This document shows positions 7,809-27,751 of a stretch of DNA of 64,000 nt, piece after piece; positions within the stretch are counted from its first letter, which is position 1, and each line of letters begins with the position of its first letter. The notes beneath the pieces were generated by a model. It saw only the letters and a list, made by a program, of their open reading frames with translations. It had not been told where the DNA came from and made no database searches. The stretch lies in assembly GCA_964436165.1 (NCBI GenBank), contig CAYTBY010000001.1, positions 6,777 through 70,776 on the forward strand, written 5' to 3'. The position numbers and the translations under genes are program-made. This DNA comes from an uncultured Candidatus Saccharibacteria bacterium. Its GTDB lineage: Bacteria; Patescibacteriota; Minisyncoccia; 2-02-FULL-40-12; GWA2-44-9.

Positions 7809-9956
7809 TTAGTGATGGCCGGCAATTTCTTGGTGCGGGTTTTTATTGCCGTTATAGAGATAGGCACCTCGTCTATTGGAATACCAAACCATTTTCTGGT
7901 ACCAATCTTCCCATGTCGGCCACGTTTGAGATCTGCGGTCGATTGTGAATTCTTGAGGTTCATGAGCTAAAGGAATTTTTTGACCCACTAAAACCGATCT
8001 ATAAATACCCCAGGTATTGTAAGAAAGGCGGATACTTATATCTTCTGCCTGAAAAGGTATTTTTAGCAAATGGCGGTTGAGATTAATTGATTCTTCAAGG
8101 ATTTCGATCGGAACTTCAGAGTTTGACATCGCTAGATATCTCAAGAGCTGTCCGGCTTCTTTGTAAAAATCTTCGAGTTTACCTTCCCGGCACAGCTTAA
8201 TCAGGATATGTTCATCGGGCATCCAGTAGATTTTCAGCCACTCTTCCGAATATATGAATTCACCCTGCTTGCCTGCTTGAATGTCCCGGCCAGTTTGAGA
8301 GAAGAATCTGTTAATTTCTGAGAGTACCGGGAAATTGCCGTATTTTGAGAACTGATCAAAGCTGAAAAGTTCCAAGATCTGCCGATAACTAAAGCCATAA
8401 ACTTCGTGGAGGATAATTATGGGAATTTGAAGGAGTTTGCTGAAATAAAATAAGTTTACAGTCCAGCAAAGGATATATGTCTTAACCCAATCTTCGGGCG
8501 GCATAGTGTTGGTTCCAATGACGAATTCTTGTAATTCATCAATTCCGGTATCGGAGTCATTTTTACTGCCGTGAGCATTTATAATTTTTGTTTTTACCGT
8601 TTTGAATCCGTAGCGTTCCTGATATTCCCAATCCGCCATCTCGGTATTGCAAAGGATGGAAAGAATGTTGAACTGAATCCGATTATGCTGGCCGTTAGTA
8701 ATTAATGTTGCAATTCCGTCAAAAAAGGTATCGAATGTTTCCTCGGGCATGCCGGGGATCAGGTCGGTCATGGTAAAAATTCTTTGGGCAGCTAATTCTT
8801 TTTGAATTTCATAATATTGTTCCAGCTTCATGTTATCGCGTCTCACGGCTTTAAGGGTCGGAGGATTAAGTGATTGCTGTGACATTACGGTAGCTTTGTT
8901 GAGGCCGGCTCTTTCCAGGGCTTTTAGGGCTCTAATTGTGTGGGCTTTAGGATTTTTAGAATTCTGGGTTGAGACAGCTTCGGGATAGCCGTATTTTACT
9001 TTCGATTCGGCAAAGAATTCTGCAATTTGCTCGTCTCTTTCTTTGATGCCCCAGTTAGCATCGCAAATAAACCAGTAGGGAACTTTATGCTGTCCGCACC
9101 ACATGATGTCGTTGTATATTTGTGTCATTGGAAATTCGCTCACACGATCTTCTGTCGCTCCGCCCCAATCGCAATATGTGCATGAGAAAGGACAGCCCCG
9201 GTTAGTTTCGTACATTGTGATAAAAACCTGATCCGGATTCTCTTCGATCAACTTATCAAAAACCCCAGTTGTAAAAGGAGATGGTACTTCGGCTAATTCA
9301 TTGTTTTTCATCCGCTCGAGTTTGTTATTGTAACAGAAATTCCCATTTGCATCAGTATAGCTGATTGAAGGAATCAGTCTTTTATTATAGCATCCGTCGA
9401 TTGCCATTTGTTCAAGAATCTTTGTGAATACTCTTTCGCCCTCGCCGTGAACGCAAATATCTATTTCCGGATGAGCCCGATGATAATCAGGGGTAAAATT
9501 TATTCGCTGACGTTTTTGTTCTTCTGCCGTCAGCTCGGTTGTCCTGTTGAGGCGGAATTGCTTCTTACTGTCCGGAACTTGCGGTCCTCCAAAAACAAGA
9601 ATTCCATTCGGATTCCTTTTTTTATATTCCTGCCCCAAGACTAAGGAGTGCTGTTCTCCCCAGGTGTAATTTCCTACGCCAAGTATGTCGCATTCACTTA
9701 ATTTTTCACATATCTCATCAATCTCTCTCCGGTTCTTCGGGAACTTGTAAATTATTTCTTTGAATTCAAGATCGTCGGGATATGGAAAGTGCCGTTTCGC
9801 GTATGCCTGGATTAAACCAGCGGCAAAGGGAAAATAATATTGTCCGGAAAAAGACGTATTTAACTGTATTTGGCCGATCCTTATTTGCCCGTTAGGTTTC
9901 GGCACAATTCTAGGGGGATTTTCGGTCACCGTTTTGAGAGGAATTATAGATCCCAT
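7809..9956 (-). CDS. B12-binding-domain radical SAM enzyme (715 aa, paralog 1)
   Basis: CPFSCTYC has the CxxxCxxC radical SAM cluster motif. The N-terminal region is B12-binding-like. A C-terminal extension of about 250 aa is shared with 16508..18580. Confidence 0.75.
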   Translation of the reverse strand: MGSIIPLKTVTENPPRIVPKPNGQIRIGQIQLNTSFSGQYYFPFAAGLIQAYAKRHFPYPDDLEFKEIIYKFPKNRREIDEICEKLSECDILGVGNYTWGEQHSLVLGQEYKKRNPNGILVFGGPQVPDSKKQFRLNRTTELTAEEQKRQRINFTPDYHRAHPEIDICVHGEGERVFTKILEQMAIDGCYNKRLIPSISYTDANGNFCYNNKLERMKNNELAEVPSPFTTGVFDKLIEENPDQVFITMYETNRGCPFSCTYCDWGGATEDRVSEFPMTQIYNDIMWCGQHKVPYWFICDANWGIKERDEQIAEFFAESKVKYGYPEAVSTQNSKNPKAHTIRALKALERAGLNKATVMSQQSLNPPTLKAVRRDNMKLEQYYEIQKELAAQRIFTMTDLIPGMPEETFDTFFDGIATLITNGQHNRIQFNILSILCNTEMADWEYQERYGFKTVKTKIINAHGSKNDSDTGIDELQEFVIGTNTMPPEDWVKTYILCWTVNLFYFSKLLQIPIIILHEVYGFSYRQILELFSFDQFSKYGNFPVLSEINRFFSQTGRDIQAGKQGEFIYSEEWLKIYWMPDEHILIKLCREGKLEDFYKEAGQLLRYLAMSNSEVPIEILEESINLNRHLLKIPFQAEDISIRLSYNTWGIYRSVLVGQKIPLAHEPQEFTIDRRSQTWPTWEDWYQKMVWYSNRRGAYLYNGNKNPHQEIAGHH

Positions 9957-10020
9957 TTTTCCCTTAATTTTAAAGTTCTTGTCGTGTTATACCTTAAACT
10001 TCAAGTTTTGGCAAATTAAC

Positions 10021-10048
10021 CCCCACACTCATACATGAGTGTGTGGGG
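10021..10048. promoter_or_regulatory. Near-perfect palindrome CCCCACACTCAT-ac-ATGAGTGTGTGGGG just upstream of the radical SAM gene 1 start (minus strand)
   Basis: Inverted repeat read directly from the sequence. The same arms recur at 39576..39643, flanking a 66-bp AT-rich spacer. Confidence 0.4.
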
Positions 10049-10050
10049 TT

Positions 10051-10076
10051 AAAAAGCCCCACCTATTTAGCGGGGC
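10051..10076 (-). terminator. Rho-independent terminator for the aldo/keto reductase operon
   Basis: GCCCCAC-ctatttag-CGGGGC hairpin preceded on the plus strand by aaaaa, which is a T-run on the minus strand. Confidence 0.5.
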
Positions 10077-10108
10077 TTGGTTTAGAAGCCGTCTGAGAAG
10101 TCCATATT

Positions 10109-11059
10109 CTACTTAACAAAAAACTCATTATTGTCTTTGTATATTTTACGGATTTGTTCCACCGTCCCTTGGCTTAGAGGCGGTAAATTTGAGACAACAG
10201 TATTTTCTAAAACATCACTTACCGTAAGCAGGCCGGGGATGACAGTGCTTACTCCGTCAGCACTTAAGCAATAACGCAAGGCCAACATGGCTAACGGATG
10301 TTCTGGGTCAACTTCTGATAGTAACCGAGCGGCTTTTTGCCAGGACTCCCTCTGTTTCATCGGCCAAACCGATCTGTGGTCCTGCGGACCAAAGTTCAGA
10401 TCCATAGTTTTTCCATTATCGGTAAGAAAGCCGAAATTTAAGGGCGTGCGTGCAATAATTCCTACGCCTTGATTCCTAGCCTTTTCTATGAGGCCGTTAT
10501 CAATCGCTCTCTGGTCAATCATGCTTAGGTTGGCCTGGATAGAAGCAAATAGGCTGTATTTTAGCGCTAGAAGACCCTGATTAGGATGTTTAACCGAAAC
10601 ACCGAAAGCTTTGACCAGTCCTCGGGTTTTTAATTCCAGCAAGGCGTCAACGATGTCGTCCATGGGCAAATTTTGAATGTCCGGATTATGAAGCTGGTAA
10701 AGATCGACATAACCTGTTCCTAGATTCTCCAGACTTCTTTGAAGGGTGGCGGTAATATTTTGTCTCGAAAAATTTTGGGGAGTGTGGTGTTCCAGAAATC
10801 CAACCTTGGTGCCGATGACTACTTGGCCGCGGCAGTGCCTAAAGGTCTTTCCAATGAGGTTTTCGCTATGGCCATAGACTCCGGCAGTATCGTAGTAAGT
10901 TACTCCCTGATCAAACGCCTTTTCCAGGGTTTTTTGAGATTCGTTGTCGTCGGTCGGTCCGTAAGAGGTAGGACCGGGAGTTACACCGCCGATGCCCCAA
11001 CCGCCAAATCCGATTTCTGATACCATAATCCCGGTTGATCCGAAAGGACGATATTTCAT
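10109..11059 (-). CDS. Aldo/keto reductase family oxidoreductase
   Basis: N-terminus MKYRPFGSTGIMVSEIGFGGWGIGG. It has AKR-type YDTA..YG and a C-terminal block. Confidence 0.8.
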   Translation of the reverse strand: MKYRPFGSTGIMVSEIGFGGWGIGGVTPGPTSYGPTDDNESQKTLEKAFDQGVTYYDTAGVYGHSENLIGKTFRHCRGQVVIGTKVGFLEHHTPQNFSRQNITATLQRSLENLGTGYVDLYQLHNPDIQNLPMDDIVDALLELKTRGLVKAFGVSVKHPNQGLLALKYSLFASIQANLSMIDQRAIDNGLIEKARNQGVGIIARTPLNFGFLTDNGKTMDLNFGPQDHRSVWPMKQRESWQKAARLLSEVDPEHPLAMLALRYCLSADGVSTVIPGLLTVSDVLENTVVSNLPPLSQGTVEQIRKIYKDNNEFFVK

Positions 11060-11859
11060 GCGATTCTCGCTTTGGAATTTCCACCATCAAGTAAAATCCA
11101 TTGTCCGGTAACAAAGTTAGCTTGTTTGGAAGCAAGGAAAACCGTCCAGTTTGCGGCATCTTCCTCCGTGCCCTGTCTGCCCATTGGAATTTTACTCACG
11201 ACTTCTTTCGTCATGATCTCGCGCGCTTCCGCAACCGAGATATTCTTAGTTTGCGCCCGATCCCTGACGTCTCTCTCCCAGGTATCACAAGTTAATGAGT
11301 GGGGTGCAATTGCATTGACACAGATGCCCTTGGGCGCAAGTTCGTTGGACCAACGTTTATTTAAGAAATCCATAGCCGATTTAGCGGCGCCGTAGTGAGG
11401 ATTGTTCCAGCCTGGTTCGCGGGTGCATTTTGTGCTGACATTTATAATTCTTGCTTGATCAGATTTTTCTAAGAGTGGGATGCTAAATTCAGTGAACCAC
11501 TGCATACTCAGAGTATTTAATTTATACATATTGATCCATTGTTCTTCGGTAAGGCCATAAAGCTGAAGTGGTTTTTCGGTACCGCCACCGATGTTGTTCA
11601 CGAGGATATCGAGTTTGTCGATGTTGCCCAGGAATCCTCGAACCTCTTCACGGTTTGTTCCATCAACACACTTGGAATGAACACTGCCTTCGAAGCCCAT
11701 GGCAGCAATTTCTTTATGGGTTCTCTTAAGTTTTTCAAGCCCCCTGGCGCATAAAATTATATCGCAGCCCTCTTTAGCTAAAGCGATTGCGCATGTCTTG
11801 CCTATACTTTGGCTTGAGCCGGTAATAAGAGCTGTCCTACCTTTTAGTCCAAGATCCAT
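11056..11859 (-). CDS. Short-chain dehydrogenase/reductase (classical SDR)
   Basis: ALITGSSQSIGK is a TGxxxGIG motif. NNIG is an NNAG-like motif. Catalytic motif HYGAAKSAM (YxxxK). Confidence 0.8.
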   Translation of the reverse strand: MDLGLKGRTALITGSSQSIGKTCAIALAKEGCDIILCARGLEKLKRTHKEIAAMGFEGSVHSKCVDGTNREEVRGFLGNIDKLDILVNNIGGGTEKPLQLYGLTEEQWINMYKLNTLSMQWFTEFSIPLLEKSDQARIINVSTKCTREPGWNNPHYGAAKSAMDFLNKRWSNELAPKGICVNAIAPHSLTCDTWERDVRDRAQTKNISVAEAREIMTKEVVSKIPMGRQGTEEDAANWTVFLASKQANFVTGQWILLDGGNSKARIA

Positions 11860-11918
11860 TTTTCCCCTCTTTTCAAAGTTCTTGGCGCGTATTGTATTTT
11901 ATTTATTACAATATGTCA

Positions 11919-12000
11919 ATCCCGTTAGAGGTCCGGCCTGCCTGAAAGGCATGGCCGGCAGACGATCCGTCAAAGGCGGACGTCTTACCTCTAACGGGAT
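11919..12000 (-). other. Structured ~82-bp element. A 14-bp outer inverted repeat (ATCCCGTTAGAGGT / ACCTCTAACGGGAT) encloses nested hairpins. Possible cis-regulatory RNA or attenuator between the transketolase operon and the SDR/AKR genes.
   Basis: Inverted repeats read directly. The inner hairpin is CCGGCC-tgcctgaaaggca-TGGCCGG. It lacks a tRNA T-loop. Confidence 0.3.
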
Positions 12001-12004
12001 CAAG

Positions 12005-12026
12005 TAAAAAAGGCCCTTTCAGGCCT
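12005..12026 (-). terminator. Terminator overlapping the stop of the transketolase C-subunit gene
   Basis: aaaaaa + AGGCC-ctttca-GGCCT. On the minus strand this reads as a hairpin followed by TTTTTT. Confidence 0.4.
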
Positions 12027-12951
12027 TTCGATATAAATCCATAATTTGTTGAGCTACTGCTTCCGCATTTAATTTATAACAGCCCAGCATGTATTGATGG
12101 CTACCGGTGCGGTGATTGTATTCGTCAGGAATGCCCAGGCATCTGAAAAGCGGTTTTTTCTTGTAGTCATATTCACAAATAATCCTAGCGATACTTTCTC
12201 CTAGTCCACCGATGACATTGTGTTCTTCTAAGACAAATATCATATTTCTTGTTCGAACCGATTTTTCAATAAGCTCCTTGTCCAGCGGCTTTATTGTATG
12301 AATATTTATTACTTCTGTGCTAATTCCATGCTGTTCAAGAATATCACTGGCAGAAACAGCTTCTCTGACCATTGTGCCTGTAGCAAAGATTGTTATATTT
12401 TCTCCATGTTTAACAACTAATCCTTTACCGATTTCGAGACTATATTCTTTTTCGGCATTCGGTTCTCCGCCCTTGCCGATTCGCAGGTAGGCAGGATGAG
12501 ATGCGGTCAGAATGTATTTCGTGATTAACCGTGCTTCAAGCGGGTTCGAGGGGGAGTATATATGCATGTTTGGCAATGCTTTCATTGCGGCAATATCTTC
12601 AATGGCATGATGAGTGCAACCGCAAGTCGAATAAGCATAACCGGCGGCTACTCCGATAACCACAACCCCGACATTTTGATAACAGACATCTACTTTAATC
12701 TGTTCAAGACATCGCAGTGTGGCAAATGGGGCAATGGAATAAACAAAAACTCTATTTCCAGAAAGGGCAAGACCGGCGGCAATACTAATCATATTCTGTT
12801 CAGCGATGCCGACGTTTACATACTGATATTTATCTTGCAAGTTTTTTCTGAAATCATCCAAGTGAGCATGACCCAGGTCGCCAGTTAAAAATACAATCTT
12901 GGGATCGGCAAGCGCGGCTTGGTAGATTGTCTTTATTACTTCAAATCTCAT
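12019..12951 (-). CDS. Transketolase, C-terminal (pyrimidine-binding) subunit of a split transketolase
   Basis: GIAEQNMISIAAGLALSG and a C-terminal transketolase fold. It is coupled by an ATGA overlap to the N-subunit gene. Confidence 0.8.
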   Translation of the reverse strand: MRFEVIKTIYQAALADPKIVFLTGDLGHAHLDDFRKNLQDKYQYVNVGIAEQNMISIAAGLALSGNRVFVYSIAPFATLRCLEQIKVDVCYQNVGVVVIGVAAGYAYSTCGCTHHAIEDIAAMKALPNMHIYSPSNPLEARLITKYILTASHPAYLRIGKGGEPNAEKEYSLEIGKGLVVKHGENITIFATGTMVREAVSASDILEQHGISTEVINIHTIKPLDKELIEKSVRTRNMIFVLEEHNVIGGLGESIARIICEYDYKKKPLFRCLGIPDEYNHRTGSHQYMLGCYKLNAEAVAQQIMDLYRKA

Positions 12952-13856
12952 TGGACACCCCCATTCAACTCTTTTTTAGCCCTCTCGTATTCTTCCGGGC
13001 TTGGGCATTTGCCATGCCAGATATAATCGTCTTCCATGAATGGGACACCCTTACCCTTTATTGTCTGGGCAATTATCGCCAGAGGATTTCTCTCTCTATC
13101 CAAAGCCTCTTTTATCTGGGGGAAAGAGTGGCCGTCTATTTTTTTTACTTGCCAGCCAAAACTCTCGAACTTTTTATCTAGCGGTTCTATGCTTAGAATC
13201 TTATCTGTCTGTCCTAGCGTCTCAAGATTATTATTATCAATAATCAAGACAAGATTGCTAAGTTTATGGAATCCGGCGAACATTAACGCTTCCCAGTTTG
13301 AACCTTCCTGAAGCTCGCCATCGCCCGCAAGAACAAATACTCTTGATGACTTTCCGGCTTTCTTGGCGGCTAAAGCCATGCCAATACCAACCGATAAGCC
13401 ATGGCCAAGGGAGCCATTGGTTGTTTCAACTCCGGGCAAAGCACCACGGGTATTGTGGTCACCGATCGGAGTGCCGTCGCTGCCATATTCCCTCAGTTTC
13501 TCCAATGGAAAATAACCCCTCATTGCCAAAATCGCATACAATGCCACACAAGCGTGGCCTTTGCTTAAAATAAATTTATCCCTGTCTTCCCAATTAGGAT
13601 TTGAAGGATTGATTTTCATGAGGTCTCCGAAATATAGCGCAGTTAATATGTCGACTATAGAAAGAGCGCAGCCAAGATGGGACGACTTAGCTTCAAATAT
13701 CATGTCCAGTATCAGATGTCGGGCCGTTCTTGCCTGTTTGGTCAGGTAGGTATTATTTGTCATTTTACCCCTTGTTTTTTTAACGAACATGTTTAGAAGA
13801 CTATACAACCATATTTTTATCCAGTCAATGAGCGGAGTTGACCCCGCACTTATCAA
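12948..13856 (-). CDS. Transketolase, N-terminal (TPP-binding) subunit
   Basis: HLGCALSIVDILTALYF and SKGHACVALYAIL. GDGELQEGSNWEA is a ThDP-binding GDG...N motif. Confidence 0.8.
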   Translation of the reverse strand: MISAGSTPLIDWIKIWLYSLLNMFVKKTRGKMTNNTYLTKQARTARHLILDMIFEAKSSHLGCALSIVDILTALYFGDLMKINPSNPNWEDRDKFILSKGHACVALYAILAMRGYFPLEKLREYGSDGTPIGDHNTRGALPGVETTNGSLGHGLSVGIGMALAAKKAGKSSRVFVLAGDGELQEGSNWEALMFAGFHKLSNLVLIIDNNNLETLGQTDKILSIEPLDKKFESFGWQVKKIDGHSFPQIKEALDRERNPLAIIAQTIKGKGVPFMEDDYIWHGKCPSPEEYERAKKELNGGVQ

Positions 13857-14032
13857 GCTTTGGCGGTTTGATATTTCTTGATGATGATGGTTTATAAATT
13901 ATTATGATTCTATTAGTAATTATTTGTTTAGCTTATGACCGCGAGGAAATATAAGCTCGATAAGTGACGGGGTTGATTCTTGGCTTTAATTTGATACCAT
14001 AACCCAAGTCCTATTAAGAAAGGAGTTGGTAG

Positions 14033-14731
14033 GTGGAGAAAATTTCATACAAAACAGTTAGTTATAAAAACATAAAAGTAAATTATTTGCCTGAACTTGA
14101 GGGCGGAGGCAGGGGATTTGGGCAAGAGTATATTCGTGTTATTAGGGAAAAAGTTGGAAAAGTTGACCATGTTTTTGAATTTTGCGCCGGGCCGGGATTT
14201 ATAGGTTTTTCTTTACTGGCGCAGGGGCTTTGTAATAGATTGACATTAGCGGATATTAACCCGGAAGCGGTAGGGGCCTGTCAAAAAACCATAGAGGATA
14301 ACGACCTTGAAGACAGAGTCTCTGTTTACTTGTCTGATTGTCTAGACTCAATTCCTGTATCGGAAAAATGGGATTTAGTGGTAAGTAATCCCCCTCATTT
14401 TTGGACCGGATCAGAGGAAGTTCATAAACAGGATATTCGTACGTATGATATTGATTTTAGAGTTCATAGAAAATTTTACCAGGATATTAAGAAATTTCTT
14501 AAACCCGATGGCTCGGTTATAATTCAAGAAAATGGAAATGTTAACCGGCCAGGCTTTACAAGGCTTGAAGATTTTACTTCTATGATCGGGGAAGGAGGTC
14601 TGGAAATTGTGGAAGTTTTTTACGCCAGAGTTATGTCTGTTGAAGAGTGTCTTGGCGGAGGAGGAAGGATGGGGATGGATACTCAACAATCCCAGTTCTA
14701 TTTTATTTGGAGCAAAATAAAAACCGCCTAA
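14033..14731 (+). CDS. Class I SAM-dependent methyltransferase (small-domain/NPPY-like, motif VSNPPHF)
   Basis: FEFCAGPGFIG is SAM motif I. DLVVSNPPHF is an NPPY-like motif IV. It has a GTG start preceded by AGGAG at 14021-14025. Confidence 0.6.
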   Translation: MEKISYKTVSYKNIKVNYLPELEGGGRGFGQEYIRVIREKVGKVDHVFEFCAGPGFIGFSLLAQGLCNRLTLADINPEAVGACQKTIEDNDLEDRVSVYLSDCLDSIPVSEKWDLVVSNPPHFWTGSEEVHKQDIRTYDIDFRVHRKFYQDIKKFLKPDGSVIIQENGNVNRPGFTRLEDFTSMIGEGGLEIVEVFYARVMSVEECLGGGGRMGMDTQQSQFYFIWSKIKTA

Positions 14732-14744
14732 ACATGGCGGTTTT
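14719..14744. terminator. Bidirectional rho-independent terminator between convergent genes
   Basis: AAAACCGCC-taaacat-GGCGGTTTT. Confidence 0.55.
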
Positions 14745-15693
14745 AACTTAAAACAGTTTTTCGTGATATTTCAGAAATGCCCCAAGATTTGTGCGGATCC
14801 GCATTTTCTAGCGTGATCGGGTCGTTAATTGACGACTTAAACGTGATTAATTCTTCTCTGCCGATGTGGCAGAACCTATCATAACTTAACCGAGGATGGG
14901 TGGGATGATACAGTTCGCCGCCCCCGATATTCGCAAAAGAAAGATGGTCAATTGATACGCGCGGTCCGGCGTTCTCCTTAAGGTTTGATTTATGTATTAC
15001 AGAAATGTCGGAAAGATATGTAAAACCAGGTTCAGAGGATTCAAAAACAGGAATCGGGTCGTAGTAGCTAAAATATTCAGCCCCATCGAGAAACTTCAAA
15101 ATCTTTAGCCACCTATCGGAAAAGTTATCCGGTGGTGCATAGTAAGCGCAATTATTATCTTTAGTATCGCCGAAAATAGGCGTAATCGTATTCATACTAT
15201 GAGGCGACTCACCTAGCCAGGCATCAGAATGGGGATTTTCTGTTGAATAAGTTTTTGCCGAATTCTCACTGTTTGCCCATTTGCTTTTCGTCCACTCATC
15301 CTTGTGCCGGATAGTAGTTAGGGCGTAAAAACTGGCTATTAAACCGGTGAAGTTAAAACTCCTCATTATATCCCCGTAAGCTCTGTGAATCATATTATAT
15401 TCTAGAGTCAATTCGCGTTTAGGCAAAAGACAGCCATTATTGTTCTTGTTTTTTAACTCTGCTGATCTTTTGCTGAATTCGGCCATAATATCAGATTCAG
15501 CGGTAAGTACTTTTCTGCTTGGCAAGCATCGAGACATATAAAGCGCCACCGCACATCTTAAGGAATCAAATAGGTCGGGCTGTATTTTTAGTTTAAGAAT
15601 AAGCGGCGAAGGTCTTGCGCAGTCCGTTCTCGAAGCTAATTCGTCAAATCTGGCAATGCGTTTTTTGAGGTCTTCGGTCATTTTTCCTCCCAT
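14743..15693 (-). CDS. Hypothetical protein (316 aa)
   Basis: ORF with no recognisable motif. It overlaps the next gene by 16 nt and lies inside the sugar locus. Confidence 0.3.
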   Translation of the reverse strand: MGGKMTEDLKKRIARFDELASRTDCARPSPLILKLKIQPDLFDSLRCAVALYMSRCLPSRKVLTAESDIMAEFSKRSAELKNKNNNGCLLPKRELTLEYNMIHRAYGDIMRSFNFTGLIASFYALTTIRHKDEWTKSKWANSENSAKTYSTENPHSDAWLGESPHSMNTITPIFGDTKDNNCAYYAPPDNFSDRWLKILKFLDGAEYFSYYDPIPVFESSEPGFTYLSDISVIHKSNLKENAGPRVSIDHLSFANIGGGELYHPTHPRLSYDRFCHIGREELITFKSSINDPITLENADPHKSWGISEISRKTVLS

Positions 15694-16253
15694 GAGATTG
15701 CTTCACGAGTTCGGAGACTGTCGTCTGTTTCCTCCGGATCATGTCTAAAAATATATAACTGACCATCGCGGGTATCAAAGTAAACGGCTGGAACATATCC
15801 CCTAAAATCCCGAGTGGCATCACAGCGAGTAATATTTACAACATCCAGGTATTGACCGTCTGTCATCCAGGTAAACCACCTGCCCAACAAGAGGCGTTCA
15901 ATTAGCGTACTCCCATTGATGCCATCGGATTGGATATGGTTAGCTGATTTGTTTTTATATTTTTCCTCCGGCTCAACCCCATCACGAAACCAGGTTGTAT
16001 AGGTGCCTTTGTCAGCCGACCTAACCGATTTAGTAATTAAGTCTATATTATCATTCGTCCATCGCCAGACTGGGCATATGTCAGAGTAGCTGCAGATGAT
16101 TTGTTCAATCGTCAATGATTGGGGCATAACTACTCCCCAGCGAAAATCTGGGTGAGTTTTTGGAATTTTGATTGTGTCTTGAGCCGGCAAGCCTATCTTA
16201 AAAACTTCCCATAAAAATTTAGTCTGATTATCAAGGAATATTTCGATGTCCAA
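15678..16253 (-). CDS. Hypothetical protein (191 aa)
   Basis: ORF only. Confidence 0.3.
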   Translation of the reverse strand: MDIEIFLDNQTKFLWEVFKIGLPAQDTIKIPKTHPDFRWGVVMPQSLTIEQIICSYSDICPVWRWTNDNIDLITKSVRSADKGTYTTWFRDGVEPEEKYKNKSANHIQSDGINGSTLIERLLLGRWFTWMTDGQYLDVVNITRCDATRDFRGYVPAVYFDTRDGQLYIFRHDPEETDDSLRTREAISWEEK

Positions 16254-16306
16254 GACCCCCTCACTTTGTTAATGTTCTATCCTCAATAGTATGAGCTTTA
16301 TTTTAA

Positions 16307-16470
16307 AAGTCAAATTAGGACTTACGCGCTTGGGCTTTAAGAGCCCCAAAGCCAGCAAGCCCTAAAGGGTTTGGCCAATTTCTTCGTTAAAATCTCCGCT
16401 TAATCCTCGCCATACTTCTAGTATGGCTCGGCTTAATGCTCGATTTTGCCTCGAACTTGGCCAAACGCGT
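16307..16470. mobile_element. MITE-like structured repeat, copy A. The TA-flanked terminal inverted repeat is GGACTTACGCG...CGCGTAAGTCC. The interior is divergent.
   Basis: Termini are identical to the copies at 20930..21142 and 49451..49632. Intergenic. Contains internal palindromes, for example CCATACT-tct-AGTATGG. Confidence 0.45.
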
Positions 16471-16482
16471 AAGTCCTACTTC

Positions 16483-16501
16483 TAATTAAAAATCCCCGTA
16501 T
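16483..16501 (-). terminator. Terminator downstream of radical SAM gene 2
   Basis: AATCCCC-gtata-GGGGATT, with a T-run on the minus strand. Confidence 0.45.
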
Positions 16502-16507
16502 AGGGGA

Positions 16508-18580
16508 TTAAAAATGTCCGGCGATTTGAACAACGGCCTTACTGCCGTAAAGATAGGCACTTCTTTTACTGCCATACCAGACAACAAATCGGCACCAATC
16601 TTCCCAAGAATTCCATTGATCGGTATTGTAATCGATTGTAATCACCGATCCCCGTTTTTCCAACTGGATTGGTTCAGATCTAACCGCTGCTTTATAAAAT
16701 TCCCAAATATTATATGTTAGCGGCACTTCACGGTTACCGGTACGGAAAGGAAGTTTGAGCATATGTTCATTAAGTTCCACGGCTTCTCTTATCGCATCCC
16801 GATATTCACTCTTACCGTATCTGTCTAATAAAGATTCCAAGGCGCGATATGCTTCTTGGTAGAATGCAGAAAGATTCCCGTTAGTCGCGAGGTCTATTAG
16901 CATATATTCATCGGAGGGCCACCACATGTCAAGCCATTGGCTTGAATGGCAGAACTCTTCACCGCCCAGCTGAATTGACTGCGCTTTCTCAATAAAGAAC
17001 TGGTGAATTTTGTTAAGAATAGGGAAGTCAGCAGGTTGGCCAAACTGTCCTTCGGAAAAAAGCTCAATGAGTTTACTGTAACTTGCGCCGGTAAGCTCAT
17101 GGGTTAGGACCATCGGAATTTGAAATACTTTGTCAAAATGTAAAAATGCTGCGGTCCAGCTGAATGCGCGGACACGGACCCAATCTTCGCGCGGCATGGA
17201 TTTAGTGGTAATAACCATTTCTTGGTATTCAGGAACATCGTTTTCAATCTCTTTCCGGTTACCATGAATGTTAATTGTGCGTGCTTCAACCGTCTCCATG
17301 CCGAACTTTTCCCGATAGCTGGGATCAGCCATTTCAGCATTGGGTAAAATGGTTAAAATATAGAATAAAATTCTATCATGTAATCCGTTTCTGATGAGTT
17401 GATCTACGCCGTTGGTAAATGAGTCGTATGTTTCTCCCGGTAATCCGAGGACGATATCGGTAAAAGATGACACGCCATCGAGTTTCATTCTCTGCTGAAT
17501 TTCCTGATATGAGTCAAGACTGATGTTGTCCCGCTTGATATCTCTAAGAGTTCCAGGATCCATTGATTGCATTGAGAGCGAGGCTCCGGCAGCAAGTCCG
17601 GCTTCAGCAAAAATTTTCTGTACTTCATAAGAACGATCGGTTGCATTTTTCGTGTTTGAAACGGTAATTGAAGTCGGATAGCCGGTTCGTTTTCGAGTTT
17701 CAGCGCAGTATCTGGCTATATCAATATCTCGGGGAAGAATTCCTAAGTTTGCGTCAGCTAAGAAAATAAATTCAACTTTGTGATCTGCGAACCAATCCAT
17801 TTCTCTATATACTCGTTCCATCTCCCATTTATAAACCTTGGATGCTATCGCGGAACCCCAATCGCAAAATGTGCATGAAAATGGACAACCGCGATTTGTT
17901 TCCCAAACAGTAATCCATTTGATGTCGGGATTAGCCTTGATTATAGGTTCAAAAGTGCCCTCAAGGTATGGTGAAGGTAGTTCGTCAAGCTCTTTAAGAC
18001 GGGCGATTCTTTCGGTCTGAACAATGTATCTATCCTTATCTAAATAACTGATTGACGGAATCTTTCCCCAGTCCCCATATATATTTTCCAGGAGCAGTGA
18101 AAAAGGTCTTTCGCCCTCACCATGGCAAGCGATATCAATATAAGAGTTATCTCGTAAGTAGGCCTCTGTTCTTGCTAATGCGGGATCGCTTGAGTTTGGT
18201 TGATTTTTTTTCAAACTGCTAATCGTAATCGGAAGCTGTTTATTTTGTATGTGTGATTTATATTTATCCGGCACATGGGGCCCGCCTACCACAATAACAA
18301 TGTTCGGCTTTCTTGCCTTTAGCTCTTTGGCTATTGCAAGAGATAACTGATTATTCCAGACATAAAGACTGAAGCATGCGATATTGGAAGATATTAATTT
18401 TTTGACAGCTGAATCTACCGATTCTCGCGTAAAAATCGGAGAAAGGAATTGAAACCTGTCAATATTGGGAAGATTTTTACGCGCGTATGCTTCCAGAAGC
18501 CCAACGGAATACGGCAAATAGCTTGCTCCGGAAAAACCGGCGTTTATTTGGCATAAACCGACGGTAATTTTTTGATTCAT
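16508..18580 (-). CDS. B12-binding-domain radical SAM enzyme (690 aa, paralog 2)
   Basis: CPFSCTFC motif. Colinear with 7809..9956 from the N-terminus to the C-terminal ...WYGSKRSAYLYG. Confidence 0.75.
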   Translation of the reverse strand: MNQKITVGLCQINAGFSGASYLPYSVGLLEAYARKNLPNIDRFQFLSPIFTRESVDSAVKKLISSNIACFSLYVWNNQLSLAIAKELKARKPNIVIVVGGPHVPDKYKSHIQNKQLPITISSLKKNQPNSSDPALARTEAYLRDNSYIDIACHGEGERPFSLLLENIYGDWGKIPSISYLDKDRYIVQTERIARLKELDELPSPYLEGTFEPIIKANPDIKWITVWETNRGCPFSCTFCDWGSAIASKVYKWEMERVYREMDWFADHKVEFIFLADANLGILPRDIDIARYCAETRKRTGYPTSITVSNTKNATDRSYEVQKIFAEAGLAAGASLSMQSMDPGTLRDIKRDNISLDSYQEIQQRMKLDGVSSFTDIVLGLPGETYDSFTNGVDQLIRNGLHDRILFYILTILPNAEMADPSYREKFGMETVEARTINIHGNRKEIENDVPEYQEMVITTKSMPREDWVRVRAFSWTAAFLHFDKVFQIPMVLTHELTGASYSKLIELFSEGQFGQPADFPILNKIHQFFIEKAQSIQLGGEEFCHSSQWLDMWWPSDEYMLIDLATNGNLSAFYQEAYRALESLLDRYGKSEYRDAIREAVELNEHMLKLPFRTGNREVPLTYNIWEFYKAAVRSEPIQLEKRGSVITIDYNTDQWNSWEDWCRFVVWYGSKRSAYLYGSKAVVQIAGHF

Positions 18581-18663: not shown

Positions 18664-18686
18664 AAAAAAGAGCCTCCTCGGCTCTT
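18664..18686 (-). terminator. Terminator overlapping the stop of the SDR gene
   Basis: aaaaaa + AGAGCC-tcct-CGGCTCT. Confidence 0.45.
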
Positions 18687-19635
18687 AAGTGTTTGTATAC
18701 TTATTGTTTCTGATAACCTGATATCCCTTGATTAGTTCTACAATCCCATCCCGTAACGATATTTGGGGCTTAAATCCGGTACTTTCTATCTTTTCGTTGC
18801 TTACAATGTAATTACGTTTATCCGGGTCTTCTCCGATGGACGCTTCGTGAAAATAAAAAGAGGGAATTTGTTTTTGTATTTCCTGGCATAGTTCAAGCTT
18901 GCTAAGATTGGCATTGCTTAAGCCGACATTGTATACTTGATTTTTCATTTGATCGAAGTTCTTGATGCAATGCAGGAACGCCCTGGCTACATCTCGGACA
19001 TGGATATAGTTTCTTTTGAAATGAGCCTCAAAGAGAACTAAGTAGCGGTCATTTAATGCACGATATACAAAATCATTGACAAGAAGGTCAAGCCGCATTC
19101 GAGGGCTTATTCCGAATACCGTGGCTAGGCGCAGTACGATTGAATTACCCCTCTCTAATACTAATTTTTCTGCTTCAACTTTTTGGCGGCCGTAAAGAGA
19201 GATCGGGTTAAGAGGAGCCTCCTCTGTGCAGTAAATACTGTCTTGACCTATGCCATAACCACTGTTGGTATTCGGGAAGATTACTTTTGGCGTCGAATCT
19301 TCAACCCATTTTTGGCATACTTCCACTACGCCGCCGATATTGACCGTGGTAGAAGTTACGGGATCTTTATCGCAAGCGGATGCTCCGACAATAGCGGCAA
19401 GAGGAAAAACATACTCGGGTTTATAATCTTTAAAAATTTTATCTATTAATTTCTCATCCCTTGTGTCGCCTCGGATTAGATTGAACCTATCAGGATAAGA
19501 GAAACATTCCAGAAGAGTGGTCTGACCATACATGAAATTATCTAATACGATTACCTCGTGGCCTTCATTAAGAAGTGTCGGTACTAAAACAGAACCGATA
19601 TATCCGGCACCGCCGGTGACTAGGATTTTAGACAT
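18685..19635 (-). CDS. NAD-dependent epimerase/dehydratase (extended SDR)
   Basis: [12 protein letters not shown] motif and a YxxxK motif. Confidence 0.7.
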   Translation of the reverse strand: MSKILVTGGAGYIGSVLVPTLLNEGHEVIVLDNFMYGQTTLLECFSYPDRFNLIRGDTRDEKLIDKIFKDYKPEYVFPLAAIVGASACDKDPVTSTTVNIGGVVEVCQKWVEDSTPKVIFPNTNSGYGIGQDSIYCTEEAPLNPISLYGRQKVEAEKLVLERGNSIVLRLATVFGISPRMRLDLLVNDFVYRALNDRYLVLFEAHFKRNYIHVRDVARAFLHCIKNFDQMKNQVYNVGLSNANLSKLELCQEIQKQIPSFYFHEASIGEDPDKRNYIVSNEKIESTGFKPQISLRDGIVELIKGYQVIRNNKYTNT

Positions 19636-22911: not shown

Positions 22912-22938
22912 AAAAAGACCGTCTTAGAACGGTCCTTT
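22912..22938 (-). terminator. Terminator overlapping the stop of the E1-beta gene
   Basis: GACCGT-cttagaa-CGGTC with TTTTTT on the minus strand. Confidence 0.45.
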
Positions 22939-23970
22939 AAATTTATTTTCCCAAGTATGGAATTTTTCTTGGTTTAAATCTGTTTTGGTTAATCCTAACT
23001 TTTTTTCTACTGCGCGTACAATATCAACAGCGTTGGGATAGAATAAATTTTCCAGCGGTCTGGTGGTTGGACATGGAGTGGGAGCAAAACCGATTCTGGT
23101 TACAGGAGATTTGAGTTTTCCAAAACACTTTTCAGAAATGCGGGCCGCTACTTCAGCGCTGAATCCGCAGTTAAGCCAGTCATAATCAGCCACAACGCAA
23201 TGACCAGTTTTGTTAACTGATTTAATCATCACCTCATCATCCAGGGGACTGACTGTCCGCGGATCAATTATCTCTAAGCCTATCCCTCTTTTGGCAAGAA
23301 CTTGAGCGGCATCGTGGGCCTCCACGTTCATCCAGGAGGTAGCGACGACAGTAATATCAGAACCTTGTCGTATAACGCGGCTCTGGCCAATTGGCACAGT
23401 GTATGGCTCTTCAGGTACATTGCCCTCTATCCAGTAAAGCCAGCGATGTTCCAGACAAATTACCGGGTTGTTATCTCTTATCGCCGAGATCATTAACCCC
23501 TTCATATCGTATGGCGTGGTAGGCATAATTACTTTTAGTCCTGGAATATGGGCGAAAATTGATTGTAAACTTTTGCTGTGTTGAAATCCTTGTCCCCAGC
23601 CTCGGCCAATGACGGCTCTTATTACGATTGGAACGGATAAATTTCCGTTACTGCCATATCTTAGGGAGGAAGCAATATTTATCAATTGATTCATGGCCAG
23701 CAATAAAAACTCTACTCTTATGTGGACATTGATTGGCCTTAACCCGCTAAGGGCGGCTCCGATCCCAAATCCCAGCAGAGCTTCTTCAGAAAGAGGAGTA
23801 CTAAAACATCTTTTTGGTCCGAATTTTTCTAATCCGTTTGTTGAGCCAAAAATTGCCTTGTGGTCGGCTACATCTAAACCATAGACGAACACTCTTTCAT
23901 CCGCGGCCATTTCCTGGCTTATCGCCTCATTAATCGCTTGCTGATAAGTGATTATTCGCTGGTTACTCAT
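22924..23970 (-). CDS. TPP-dependent 2-oxoacid/acetoin dehydrogenase E1 component, beta subunit
   Basis: Transketolase-like pyrimidine-binding and C-terminal domains. ATGA overlap with the alpha-subunit gene. Confidence 0.75.
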   Translation of the reverse strand: MSNQRIITYQQAINEAISQEMAADERVFVYGLDVADHKAIFGSTNGLEKFGPKRCFSTPLSEEALLGFGIGAALSGLRPINVHIRVEFLLLAMNQLINIASSLRYGSNGNLSVPIVIRAVIGRGWGQGFQHSKSLQSIFAHIPGLKVIMPTTPYDMKGLMISAIRDNNPVICLEHRWLYWIEGNVPEEPYTVPIGQSRVIRQGSDITVVATSWMNVEAHDAAQVLAKRGIGLEIIDPRTVSPLDDEVMIKSVNKTGHCVVADYDWLNCGFSAEVAARISEKCFGKLKSPVTRIGFAPTPCPTTRPLENLFYPNAVDIVRAVEKKLGLTKTDLNQEKFHTWENKFKGPF

Positions 23971-27697: not shown

Positions 27698-27751
27698 CAG
27701 ATCAATAAAAGAACTGTATATTTGAACGAGTAATTTAAAAAAGGATTGATC

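What the first reader, a model, noticed from the sequence alone, without database searches (positions are those of the whole stretch)
7809..18580. Two paralogous ~700-aa B12-binding radical SAM enzymes inside a sugar-tailoring cluster
7809..9956 (715 aa) and 16508..18580 (690 aa) are colinear paralogs. Each has an N-terminal cobalamin-binding-like region, a CPFSCT[YF]C radical SAM motif, and a shared C-terminal extension of about 250 aa ending ...WY(G/S)xxR(S/G)AYLY.
They bracket an aldo/keto reductase, an SDR, a split transketolase, a SAM methyltransferase and two unknown proteins.
Class B radical SAM enzymes of this kind usually perform C-methylation or related unactivated-carbon chemistry. 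Two copies within one nucleotide-sugar cluster suggests successive radical modifications of a sugar, which is rare outside antibiotic pathways.
Basis: partly seen in the sequence, partly recalled or inferred. Interest (0 to 1): 0.6.

Follow-up and report, generated by a model that had tools for sequence, protein, structure and literature searches.

The report
TokK-like B12 radical SAM sugar methylases
Two anciently diverged copies of a vitamin-B12-dependent radical enzyme, related to the methylases that build carbapenem antibiotic side chains, lie inside a conserved pathway for an unusual branched deoxy-sugar, and this gene module turns out to be common in uncultivated bacteria and has not been characterised.

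Summary
Two minus-strand genes (7809-9956, 715 aa; 16508-18580, 690 aa) are collinear paralogs, 40% identical, with a CPFSCT[YF]C cluster motif and a shared C-terminal domain.

They are not generic class B enzymes. Their closest characterised relatives are TokK and CysS, the iterative cobalamin-dependent C-methylases (E 1e-93 and 1e-67 to TokK). The AlphaFold model of the 690-aa copy matches TokK over all three domains (TM 0.81). Both clade-signature tryptophans are invariant. MiaB/RimO is excluded.

The two copies belong to separate, widespread orthologous groups. Relatives occur in at least 598 species-level genomes across many phyla.

Near the gene, 40 complete related loci usually carry:
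- a ThDP enzyme (33/40);
- an aldo-keto or SDR reductase (33/40);
- a GHMP sugar kinase (31/40);
- a 4,6-dehydratase (30/40).

A ColD/E1-type 3-dehydrase is also frequent. This matches the yersiniose/paulomycose logic of a C4 two-carbon branch followed by ketoreduction.

Best reading: radical C-methylation of a branched deoxy-sugar nucleotide, possibly extending the branch. The substrate is inferred, not shown. Two copies per locus is unusual (4 of 85 loci). The claim that this is rare outside antibiotic pathways is wrong. I found no published description.

The parts
7809..9956 (-). rSAM_A: 715-aa TokK/CysS-like cobalamin-dependent radical SAM enzyme (A-type orthologous group)
   Evidence: PDB sequence search: TokK E 9.9e-67, CysS E 7.6e-42. 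NCBIfam KedN5 family 224.8 bits, below the cutoff of 700. Orthologs at 50-67% identity in CPR and other MAGs.
9165..9194 (-). A: CX3CX2C [4Fe-4S] motif plus the active-site Trp (C255, C259, C262, W264; CPFSCTYCDW)
   Evidence: Translation. The columns are invariant in alignment A1. W264 aligns with TokK W215.
9660..9662 (-). A: W99, equivalent to the TokK W76 / CysS W75 residue that sits under the cobalt of cobalamin
   Evidence: The role of TokK W76 and CysS W75 is taken from the papers read.
10109..11059 (-). Aldo-keto reductase, candidate ketoreductase for the sugar branch (functional analog of Pau7)
   Evidence: Pfam Aldo_ket_red E 5e-56. An AKR lies next to the rSAM on the same strand in 31 of 41 full loci. 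Pau7 precedent: PMC4753412.
11056..11859 (-). SDR-family oxidoreductase
   Evidence: Pfam adh_short and adh_short_C2. Present in 12 of 41 full loci. Syntenic in L016.
12019..13856 (-). Split transketolase: N-terminal subunit 12948-13856, C-terminal subunit 12019-12951. Either a second ThDP C-C bond enzyme or a supplier of sedoheptulose-7-phosphate
   Evidence: Pfam and NCBIfam. Syntenic between rSAM_B and SDR/AKR/rSAM_A in L016. Also next to the rSAM in L014, L058, L083 and L093.
13857..16507 (.). Lineage-specific insertion: MTS/HemK-like methyltransferase (14033-14731, + strand), unk316 (14743-15693, -) and unk191 (15678-16253, -). Probably not part of the conserved module
   Evidence: Absent from syntenic L016, where rSAM_B directly abuts the TK N-terminal subunit. 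unk316 has only 5 homologs in 5.8 billion proteins. No family or PDB hits.
16508..18580 (-). rSAM_B: 690-aa TokK/CysS-like cobalamin-dependent radical SAM enzyme (B-type orthologous group)
   Evidence: PDB sequence search: TokK E 1.5e-93, CysS E 1.9e-60. AF2 model pLDDT 83.8. Foldseek: TokK 7kdx TM 0.81 over 702 columns. NCBIfam KedN5 family 247.3 bits.
17858..17887 (-). B: CX3CX2C motif plus the active-site Trp (C232, C236, C239, W241; CPFSCTFCDW)
18356..18358 (-). B: W75, equivalent to TokK W76 (lower axial face of cobalamin)
18685..19635 (-). NAD-dependent epimerase/dehydratase-family enzyme
   Evidence: Pfam Epimerase E 2.9e-39. Conserved between the 3-dehydrase and the rSAM in L084, L083 and L093.
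19635..20819 (-). DegT-family protein predicted to be a ColD/E1(RfbH)-type sugar 3-dehydrase. His191 (codon 20247-20249) replaces the PLP lysine
   Evidence: Best NCBIfam hit is RfbH, 203 bits. FSTYYGHQSP aligns with PseC-like FSFHPVKSIT. 29 of 36 homologs in the rSAM loci have His at this position.
21148..22842 (-). NodU-like carbamoyltransferase (sugar O-carbamoylation)
   Evidence: Pfam Carbam_trans_N and Carbam_trans_C. NCBIfam NodU 187 bits. Syntenic in L016.
22924..24946 (-). Stand-alone PDH-E1-like ThDP enzyme: beta subunit 22924-23970, alpha subunit 23963-24946. Candidate two-carbon branch installer (AviB1/AviB2 and Pau11/Pau12 analog)
   Evidence: Pfam and NCBIfam. The alpha subunit is within 10 kb of the rSAM in 29 of 40 full loci, and any ThDP enzyme in 33 of 40. 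No E2 or lipoyl gene in any annotated context. Precedent: PMC4753412.
4644..7709 (-). Downstream conserved partners: GMD-like 4,6-dehydratase (6723-7709), GDP-fucose-synthase-like epimerase/reductase (5767-6765) and a TIGR04440 glycosyltransferase (4644-5729)
   Evidence: Synteny in L016, L083, L084 and L093.
28951..30611 (-). RmlC-like 3,5-epimerase (28951-29538) and HddA-like GHMP sugar kinase (29628-30611)
   Evidence: A GHMP kinase lies within 10 kb of the rSAM in 31 of 40 full loci.

Best explanation
A (7809-9956) and B (16508-18580) are cobalamin-dependent radical SAM enzymes of the TokK/ThnK/CysS architecture: an N-terminal Rossmann cobalamin domain, a CX3CX2C radical SAM barrel and a large C-terminal substrate domain.

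Proposed mechanism, taken by analogy from the family:
1. One SAM methylates cob(I)alamin.
2. A second SAM is cleaved at the [4Fe-4S] cluster to give a 5'-deoxyadenosyl radical.
3. That radical abstracts a hydrogen from an unactivated carbon of the substrate.
4. The substrate radical takes the methyl group from methylcobalamin.

The substrate is inferred to be an intermediate of a conserved nucleotide-sugar pathway with these steps:
- sugar (probably heptose) activation: GmhA-like isomerase, HddA-like kinase, RfaE-domain-II-like nucleotidyltransferase;
- 4,6-dehydration;
- ColD/E1-type 3-deoxygenation;
- ThDP-dependent attachment of a two-carbon (acetyl) branch to the 4-keto sugar by a stand-alone E1 alpha/beta enzyme;
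- radical C-methylation by the TokK-like enzyme;
- ketoreduction by the adjacent AKR or SDR.

The glycosyltransferase and the Wzx/Wzy genes elsewhere in the window would then place the sugar in a surface glycan.

My preferred site of methylation is the methyl group alpha to the branch ketone. This is chemically analogous to TokK's alpha-carbonyl C6 and would lengthen the branch. The site is the least certain step.

Shown: homology, fold, catalytic motifs and the conserved neighbourhood. Inferred: methyltransferase activity, the sugar substrate, the site of methylation and the order of steps.
For: Sequence and profile evidence:
- TokK is the best solved relative (E 1.5e-93 for B, 9.9e-67 for A), followed by CysS.
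- The best NCBIfam family is the KedN5 methylcobalamin-dependent C-methyltransferase family (E 1e-66 to 1e-73). The next best family scores 57 bits or less.
- The CX3CX2C motif and both tryptophans that distinguish TokK, ThnK and CysS from other B12 radical SAM methylases are invariant in 17 family members. These are TokK W76 under the cobalt and W215 in the active site.
- A and B each form a clade, and TokK and CysS fall outside the combined A+B clade.

Structural evidence:
- The AF2 model of B has pLDDT 83.8 and pTM 0.86.
- It superposes on TokK over 702 columns (TM 0.81) and on CysS (TM 0.69).
- OxsB, TsrM and MiaB reach at most 0.47.

Genomic context in 40 complete 22-kb loci from GTDB species genomes:
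- ThDP enzyme, 33;
- AKR or SDR, 33;
- GHMP kinase, 31;
- 4,6-dehydratase-like, 30.
- In one search, an AKR was on the same strand directly after the rSAM in 31 of 41 loci, with E1 alpha and beta 2-3 kb upstream.

Supporting annotations:
- The DegT homolog has His in place of the PLP lysine, the ColD/E1 hallmark, in 29 of 36 cases.
- A fused nucleotidyltransferase-GmhB-like phosphatase, GmhA and HddA-like genes point to heptose.
- Published precedent for the surrounding logic: Pau11/Pau12 (AviB1/AviB2-like E1 alpha/beta) install a C4 acetyl branch, and the AKR Pau7 reduces it (PMC4753412).
Against: - No biochemical data exist for any member of these two groups.
- Both proteins score far below the KedN5 family cutoff (225 and 247 bits against 700).
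- TokK's substrate-anchoring Arg280 is replaced by Thr or Ser, so the substrate differs and cannot be read from the sequence.
- Some class B enzymes do not methylate (ThnL, OxsB, BchE).
- Seven of 40 full loci lack a ThDP enzyme. Some A-type homologs (L085, L092) lie among glycosyltransferases with no E1 or AKR gene, so the link to the two-carbon branch is not universal.
- Gene order is weak evidence for reaction order.
- The split transketolase may simply supply sedoheptulose-7-phosphate.
- I could not compare the E1 alpha/beta and AKR proteins directly with AviB1/AviB2, Pau11/Pau12 or Pau7.
Confidence: 0.55

Rival explanations
1. The enzymes are B12 radical SAM methylases acting on the nucleotide sugar, but they methylate a ring or terminal carbon (for example C3, C5 or the 6-deoxy methyl, as GenK does on gentamicin) rather than the ThDP-installed branch.
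For: The homology and context evidence is the same. Some homologous loci lack any ThDP enzyme (7 of 40; L085 and L092), so the enzyme can work without a two-carbon branch.
Against: The rSAM is tightly and directionally linked to E1 alpha/beta upstream and an AKR adjacent in most loci. The known sugar-ring class B methylases (GenK type) belong to other clades, and none appears among the top profile hits.
Confidence: 0.25
2. The two paralogs serve two different sugars made by parallel pathways in this very large glycan locus, rather than acting successively on one sugar.
For: A and B are ancient, separate clades. Most genomes have only one of them. The window also duplicates other functions: two ThDP systems, AKR plus SDR, several 4,6-dehydratases, two RfaE-domain-II-like transferases and two NUDIX genes.
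Against: In the window and in L016 both genes lie in one tight operon, with shared tailoring genes between them. L093 and L083 carry both TK and E1 alpha/beta with a single rSAM, so the number of rSAM genes does not follow the number of ThDP enzymes.
Confidence: 0.35
3. The proteins use the TokK scaffold for non-methylating radical chemistry on the sugar, such as rearrangement, C-S or C-C bond formation or dehydration, as ThnL, OxsB and AprD4 do.
For: Both score far below the KedN5 equivalence cutoff. The A and B groups are as distant from TokK (31-37% identity) as from each other. Substrate-contact residues differ.
Against: Every characterised member of this particular clade (TokK, ThnK, CysS) is a methylase. 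The two clade-specific tryptophans around the cobalamin and substrate site are invariant. AprD4 and OxsB match only weakly.
Confidence: 0.12
4. They are housekeeping radical SAM enzymes (MiaB/RimO-type methylthiotransferases or similar) that merely lie next to sugar genes.
For: Weak MiaB/RimO profile hits: TIGR00089 at 20.9 and 34.5 bits.
Against: Those scores are far below the cutoff of 251. TokK matches at E 1e-93 and over the full-length fold, whereas MiaB reaches TM 0.37. The sugar-gene neighbourhood is conserved across phyla.
Confidence: 0.01

Closest known systems
TokK / ThnK (carbapenem C6 side-chain B12 radical SAM methylases; PDB 7KDX, 7KDY)
   Same: - Three-domain architecture over the full length (TM 0.81).
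- CX3CX2C motif.
- A Trp under the cobalt (TokK W76; B W75; A W99) and an active-site Trp directly after the third Cys (TokK W215; B W241; A W264).
- 31-37% identity over about 470 residues.
   Different: - TokK's substrate is a pantetheinylated carbapenam in an antibiotic cluster. Here the context is nucleotide-sugar and glycan genes.
- The carboxylate-binding Arg280 is replaced by Thr or Ser.
- The N-terminal motif is FSG(Q/A)xY instead of TokK's LNEYPF.
- A and the CPR-type B carry a disordered insert of about 25-30 aa after GGPxVPD.
CysS (cystobactamid iterative O-methyl extension; PDB 9N1B-D) and the KedN5 family (NCBIfam NF033712)
   Same: Same clade and same signature residues. KedN5 is the best NCBIfam family (E 1e-66 to 1e-73). 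CysS matches at E 1.9e-60 and 7.6e-42, with TM 0.69.
   Different: Scores of 225 and 247 bits are far below the family cutoff of 700. CysS acts on a carrier- or pantetheine-bound aromatic methoxy group, and no carrier protein gene is present here.
Paulomycose / eurekanate / yersiniose branched-sugar modules (Pau11/Pau12 or AviB1/AviB2 E1 alpha/beta, or YerE; Pau7 AKR)
   Same: A stand-alone E1 alpha/beta ThDP enzyme without an E2 partner, an AKR, a 4,6-dehydratase and a ColD/E1-type 3-dehydrase together form the gene set expected for a 3,6-dideoxy-4-C-(1-hydroxyethyl) sugar.
   Different: None of those published pathways, as far as I could find, includes a B12 radical SAM enzyme. Here a TokK-like gene is inserted between the ThDP enzyme and the reductase. 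The sugar is probably heptose-derived and the product is a surface glycan, not an antibiotic. I did not compare these proteins directly with Pau or Avi sequences.
GenK / Fom3 / HpnP-type class B methylases
   Same: Same superfamily and the same general two-SAM, methylcobalamin mechanism.
   Different: They belong to different clades. According to the TokK paper they lack the two signature tryptophans. No GenK, Fom3 or HpnP model appears among the NCBIfam hits, and the next best after KedN5 is HpnJ at 57 bits.

Membership tests
Cobalamin-dependent (class B) radical SAM enzymes | CX3CX2C motif binding the [4Fe-4S] cluster in a radical SAM barrel | tested here: met
   C232/C236/C239 in B and C255/C259/C262 in A. 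Pfam Radical_SAM scores 48.9 and 34.3 bits, above the cutoff of 29.5. The columns are invariant in A1.
Cobalamin-dependent (class B) radical SAM enzymes | N-terminal Rossmann-type cobalamin-binding domain | tested here: met
   Pfam B12-binding is sub-threshold (23 and 17.4 bits against 32.1). However, residues 15-107 of B and 41-133 of A align to TokK residues 16-108 and 22-110 (E 3e-12 and 6e-6). The model shows an alternating strand-helix pattern (strands 5-10, 67-71, 95-99) and superposes on TokK over the full length.
Cobalamin-dependent (class B) radical SAM enzymes | Actual binding of cobalamin and methyl transfer through methylcobalamin | not testable with these tools
   This needs purified protein, UV-vis or EPR spectroscopy, and an assay for SAH and 5'-deoxyadenosine.
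TokK/ThnK/CysS clade of iterative B12 radical SAM methylases | Trp on the lower axial face of cobalamin (TokK W76, CysS W75), giving base-off/His-off binding | tested here: met
   W75 in B and W99 in A, in the same YxW context. The residue is invariant in 17 sequences. Its role is taken from the papers read.
TokK/ThnK/CysS clade of iterative B12 radical SAM methylases | Active-site Trp immediately after the third cluster Cys (TokK W215, in CDWG) | tested here: met
   CDWG is present in both proteins (W241 in B, W264 in A) and is invariant.
TokK/ThnK/CysS clade of iterative B12 radical SAM methylases | Large TokK-type C-terminal domain forming the substrate channel | tested here: met
   Foldseek aligns 702 columns of the 690-aa model to TokK (TM 0.81 and 0.84). 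OxsB and TsrM, whose C-terminal domains differ, reach at most 0.47.
TokK/ThnK/CysS clade of iterative B12 radical SAM methylases | TokK substrate-binding residues (Arg280 and the pantetheine contacts) | tested here: not met
   Arg280 aligns to Thr306 in B and to Ser in A and in the family consensus. A different substrate is therefore expected. The equivalents of Tyr652 and Asn515 were not mapped.
TokK/ThnK/CysS clade of iterative B12 radical SAM methylases | Iterative (multiple) methylation of one substrate | not testable with these tools
   Needs an enzymatic time course.
NCBIfam NF033712, KedN5 family methylcobalamin-dependent radical SAM C-methyltransferase | Whole-protein score at or above the curated cutoff of 700 bits | tested here: not met
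   224.8 bits for A and 247.3 bits for B. This is the best-matching family, but the proteins are not members by NCBI's criterion.
MiaB/RimO methylthiotransferases (housekeeping) | Score above the TIGR00089 cutoff (251 bits) and a UPF0004 + radical SAM + TRAM architecture | tested here: not met
   20.9 and 34.5 bits. MiaB structures reach TM 0.37 against the model.
ColD / E1 (RfbH) sugar 3-dehydrases (for 19635-20819) | His replaces the PLP-binding Lys of DegT-family aminotransferases | tested here: met
   His191 lies in FSTYYGHQSP, opposite the Lys in PseC-like FSFHPVKSIT. 29 of 36 homologs in the rSAM loci have His. RfbH is the best NCBIfam hit, but at 203 bits it is below the cutoff of 423.
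AviB1/AviB2-Pau11/Pau12 type sugar C-branching E1 alpha/beta enzymes (for 22924-24946) | Stand-alone PDH-E1-like alpha/beta pair without an E2 or E3 partner, inside a deoxysugar cluster | tested here: inconclusive
   The E1_dh and Transket_pyr/Transketolase_C pair is confirmed. No lipoyl or E2 gene occurs in five annotated contexts. No direct sequence comparison with AviB or Pau proteins was possible, and activity is untested.

The most novel reading that the evidence does not exclude
TokK-like enzymes iteratively methylate the ThDP-installed acetyl branch of a 3,6-dideoxy-4-keto (heptose-derived) nucleotide sugar. This would build propionyl or isobutyryl-type branches that the AKR then reduces. 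The result would be a previously unseen class of higher-carbon, alkyl-branched sugars in the surface glycans of hundreds of species across many phyla, including B12-auxotrophic CPR bacteria and at least one archaeon. In the two-copy operons, A and B would add different methyl groups in succession.
Probability: 0.25. Interest if true: 0.85.

Novelty: new variant of a known kind. Interest (0 to 1): 0.62.

Why it matters
The TokK/ThnK/CysS clade is currently known only from antibiotic pathways, where it builds alkyl chains one methyl at a time on pantetheine- or carrier-linked substrates.

This work finds two large sister groups of that clade embedded in a conserved branched-deoxysugar module. 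The module occurs in at least 598 species-level genomes: Nitrospirota, Elusimicrobiota, Acidobacteriota, Alphaproteobacteria, Planctomycetota, cyanobacteria, Patescibacteria and Methanoperedens.

If the inference holds, three things follow:
- Radical C-methylation would be a common, overlooked step in cell-surface glycan biosynthesis.
- It predicts sugar structures that have not been reported.
- It supplies new substrates and scaffolds for B12 radical SAM enzymology.

The idea is directly testable because cultured carriers exist, for example Enhydrobacter aerosaccus ATCC 27094 and Reyranella. It also implies a cobalamin requirement for envelope biosynthesis in reduced-genome CPR bacteria.

Tried and rejected
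- MiaB/RimO or another housekeeping radical SAM family: rejected.
- GenK/Fom3/HpnP placement: not supported. KedN5, TokK and CysS are far closer.
- Recent tandem duplication of A and B: rejected. Identity is 40%, the two fall in separate clades, and each has closer orthologs in other phyla.
- The two unknown proteins as pathway components: unk191, unk316 and the + strand methyltransferase are absent from the syntenic locus L016.
- unk316:
  - It has only 5 homologs and no PDB hit.
  - Its AF2 model is unusable (pLDDT 33.5), so I did not attempt a fold search.
- Metagenome scan with A: returned only 5 loci, so A-type contexts were taken from the look-up of encoding contigs instead.
- Source organism:
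  - The listing of cluster members gave no names or accessions.
  - The look-up of encoding contigs returned only a short Logan contig for the window's own protein.
  - The source is therefore only inferred to be related to Saccharibacteria/Patescibacteria, from 73-85% identical syntenic genes in L016.
- My own ORF clustering was unreliable in high-GC loci because of spurious antisense ORFs. The co-occurrence counts therefore rest on tblastn.
- Phosphonate (PEP mutase) and carrier-protein readings: I considered both. No such genes were seen in the annotated window.
- Seven full-text literature searches found no description of a TokK-like enzyme in a glycan cluster. The library lacks most subscription-journal papers, so this is not proof of absence.

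Full report
**1. Observation**

The two ORFs exist exactly as described, both on the minus strand: A at 7809-9956 (715 aa) and B at 16508-18580 (690 aa).
- They align collinearly over 702 residues at 40% identity (542 bits, E = 0.0).
- Translation confirms the cluster motifs: CPFSCTYCDW at 9165-9194 and CPFSCTFCDW at 17858-17887.
- The shared C-terminal ...WY(S/G)xxR(G/S)AYLY motif is visible.
- One correction: the methyltransferase (14033-14731) is on the opposite strand.

**2. What the two proteins are**

Profile evidence:
- Pfam gives Radical_SAM above threshold and B12-binding only below threshold.
- The best NCBIfam model by a wide margin is the KedN5 family of methylcobalamin-dependent radical SAM C-methyltransferases. 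It scores 224.8 and 247.3 bits (E 1e-66 and 1e-73). The next family scores 57 bits or less.
- Both scores are far below the family's curated cutoff of 700.

Structural evidence:
- Against all PDB sequences the only strong matches are TokK (E 1.5e-93 for B, 9.9e-67 for A) and CysS (E 1.9e-60 and 7.6e-42). The alignments include the N-terminal cobalamin domain.
- An AlphaFold2 model of B has mean pLDDT 83.8 and pTM 0.86.
- It matches TokK 7KDX over 702 alignment columns (TM 0.81 and 0.84) and CysS at TM 0.69.
- OxsB, TsrM, AprD4 and MiaB stay at 0.47 or below.
- The shared C-terminal extension of about 250 aa is therefore the TokK-type third domain. In TokK and CysS this domain forms the substrate channel (papers read).

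Signature residues:
[quoted passage not shown] They are W76, beneath the cobalt, and W215, directly after the third cluster cysteine.
- Both are present here (B: W75 and W241; A: W99 and W264).
- Both are invariant in a 17-sequence family alignment.
- TokK's carboxylate-anchoring Arg280 aligns to Thr or Ser, so the substrate must differ.

**3. The two copies are old paralogs from two widespread groups**

- Each query finds more than 3,500 homologs at E below 1e-20.
- B has 50%-identical orthologs in Nitrospirota, Elusimicrobia, Planctomycetota, Alphaproteobacteria and Patescibacteria. A has 50-67%-identical orthologs, many in Candidatus Yanofskybacteria.
- Each is thus closer to orthologs in other phyla than to its neighbour.
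- In a neighbour-joining tree, sampled A-type and B-type sequences are each monophyletic, and TokK and CysS fall outside the combined clade.
- B is 37% identical to TokK over 467 residues, about as far as it is from A (39.5%).
They include the cultured Enhydrobacter aerosaccus ATCC 27094 and one archaeon, Ca. Methanoperedens.
- Only 4 of the 85 loci with a TokK-like match carry two TokK-like genes.
- The closest relative of the window is an uncultured Saccharibacteria MAG (L016). It is 74% identical for B and 73-85% for several neighbouring genes, with the same gene order.
- The window therefore probably comes from a related member of the Patescibacteria. I could not confirm this.

**4. Conserved neighbourhood**

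tblastn of the window's proteins against the 40 complete 22-kb GTDB loci shows, within 10 kb of the rSAM:

| Partner | Loci |
|---|---|
| Transketolase-superfamily ThDP enzyme | 33/40 (E1 alpha subunit in 29) |
| AKR or SDR | 33/40 |
| GHMP kinase | 31/40 |
| GMD-like 4,6-dehydratase | 30/40 |
| DegT-family protein | 19/40 |
| RmlC-like epimerase | 14/40 |

- The AKR is on the same strand directly after the rSAM in 31 of 41 loci, and E1 alpha/beta lie 2-3 kb upstream.
- A frequent extra partner is a fused nucleotidyltransferase/GmhB-like HAD phosphatase.

In the window itself:
- The SIS protein scores as GmhA (208.4 bits against a cutoff of 209.45).
- The GHMP kinase is closest to HddA.
- The two cytidylyltransferase-like ORFs are closest to RfaE domain II, the heptose-1-phosphate adenylyltransferase.
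- The NUDIX proteins are closest to the ADP-compound hydrolase NudE.
- Together these point to a heptose nucleotide as the starting material.

The DegT homolog next to B (19635-20819) is best matched by RfbH. It carries His191 where aminotransferases have the PLP lysine. This substitution is the hallmark of the ColD/E1 sugar 3-dehydrases, a point I take from established knowledge of those enzymes. Twenty-nine of 36 DegT homologs in the rSAM loci share it.

No E2 or lipoyl gene accompanies the E1 alpha/beta pair in any Pfam-annotated context.

**5. Mechanistic reading**

The gene set is a 4,6-dehydratase, a 3-dehydrase, a stand-alone E1 alpha/beta and an AKR. This is what is expected for a 3,6-dideoxy-4-C-(1-hydroxyethyl) sugar of the yersiniose or paulomycose type. 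In paulomycin biosynthesis the AviB1/AviB2 homologs Pau11/Pau12 are proposed to attach a C4 acetyl branch, and the AKR Pau7 was shown to reduce it (PMC4753412).

The difference here is a TokK-like enzyme placed between the ThDP enzyme and the reductase.
- I propose that it C-methylates an intermediate of this pathway through the family's two-SAM, methylcobalamin mechanism.
- The most likely site is the methyl group alpha to the branch ketone. This is the closest chemical analog of TokK's alpha-carbonyl C6, and it would allow chain extension.
- Shown: homology, fold, motifs and genomic association.
- Inferred: activity, substrate, site and order of steps.

Caveats:
- Seven of 40 full loci lack a ThDP enzyme.
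- Some A-type homologs lie among glycosyltransferases without E1 or AKR genes.
- The split transketolase may only supply sedoheptulose-7-phosphate for GmhA.

**6. Architecture of this window**

On the minus strand the order is:
- E1 alpha, E1 beta;
- NodU-like carbamoyltransferase;
- 3-dehydrase, epimerase;
- rSAM_B;
- [unk191, unk316, (+) methyltransferase];
- TK N-terminal and C-terminal subunits;
- SDR, AKR;
- rSAM_A;
- GMD-like dehydratase, fucose-synthase-like reductase;
- TIGR04440 glycosyltransferase;
- PseB, PseC, methyltransferase.

Comparison with related loci:
- L016 has the same order without the bracketed 2.6-kb segment, which is therefore a lineage-specific insertion.
- Yanofskybacteria-type loci (L083, L093) have TK, E1 alpha/beta, 3-dehydrase, epimerases, AKR and rSAM_A, with no B-type gene.
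- B thus looks like an addition to an A-type operon.
- Whether A and B act in succession on one sugar or on two different sugars cannot be decided from sequence.

**7. Novelty**

Seven full-text searches found no report of a TokK-like or other B12 radical SAM enzyme in a polysaccharide or nucleotide-sugar pathway of this kind. The library is incomplete.

The enzymes are a new variant of a known kind. The catalytic scaffold is well understood, but the context and presumably the substrate class are uncharacterised and widespread.

**8. Verdict**

- Confidence is about 0.95 that these are TokK/CysS-clade cobalamin radical SAM enzymes.
- It is about 0.55 that they C-methylate an intermediate of the branched-sugar pathway.
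- It is about 0.25-0.3 that the target is the two-carbon branch and that methylation is iterative.
- Interest is 0.62.

Noticed in passing
window 36299-39568 (-): A 1089-aa GDP-mannose 4,6-dehydratase is interrupted by intein sequence. The Pfam GDP_Man_Dehyd match is split into 3 stretches, with a LAGLIDADG_3 homing-endonuclease domain (aa 286-359) and an intein splicing domain (aa 459-492). The excess of about 720 aa suggests possibly two inteins.
   Followed up: no
window 13857-16507: unk191, unk316 and an opposite-strand HemK/MTS-like methyltransferase form a 2.6-kb insertion that is absent from the syntenic Saccharibacteria locus L016. unk316 is an orphan family with 5 members among 5.8 billion proteins, and its AF2 model failed (pLDDT 33.5).
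   Followed up: partly
window 4644-5729 (-): The 'unknown' 361-aa protein matches the NCBIfam TIGR04440 glycosyltransferase domain (133 bits, cutoff 70). It also shows weak similarity to SpsA. It is conserved beside the rSAM module in L016, L083, L084, L093, L006 and L042. It is a candidate transferase for the modified sugar.
   Followed up: partly
window 2463-4558 (-): PseC and PseB both score above their NCBIfam cutoffs. These are the first two steps of pseudaminic acid synthesis. No NeuB/PseI synthase follows them in the window, whereas the syntenic locus L084 continues with a NeuB-CMP-transferase fusion.
   Followed up: no
window 25034-28929: This block holds two RfaE-domain-II-like (heptose-1-phosphate adenylyltransferase-like) genes, two NudE-like NUDIX hydrolases, an AAA_28 protein and an inositol-monophosphatase-family phosphatase. 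Together with GmhA (34742-35323) and an HddA-like kinase (29628-30611), it looks like an unusual, mixed ADP/GDP-heptose-type activation route.
   Followed up: partly
B aa 107-130 (about window 18191-18262) and A aa about 132-157: A Lys/Gln-rich insertion follows the GGPxVPD strand of the cobalamin domain and is predicted to be disordered (pLDDT about 30). It is present in all A-type and CPR-type B sequences examined. It is absent from TokK and from the B-type orthologs of other phyla.
   Followed up: no
L083, L084, L093 (about 12.2-13.5 kb in each locus): A second radical SAM gene of 432 aa, with no B12 domain, lies divergently right after the A-type rSAM in three related loci. It is missing from the window.
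   Followed up: no
window 47057-52593 and 59693-61009: A Wzx-like flippase, a Wzy_C/O-antigen-ligase-like protein fused to TPR repeats, and a Bac_transf initiating sugar transferase are present. The sugars are therefore probably exported on a lipid carrier by a Wzx/Wzy-type route. If the source is a CPR bacterium, this is a very large share of a small genome devoted to one glycan.
   Followed up: no
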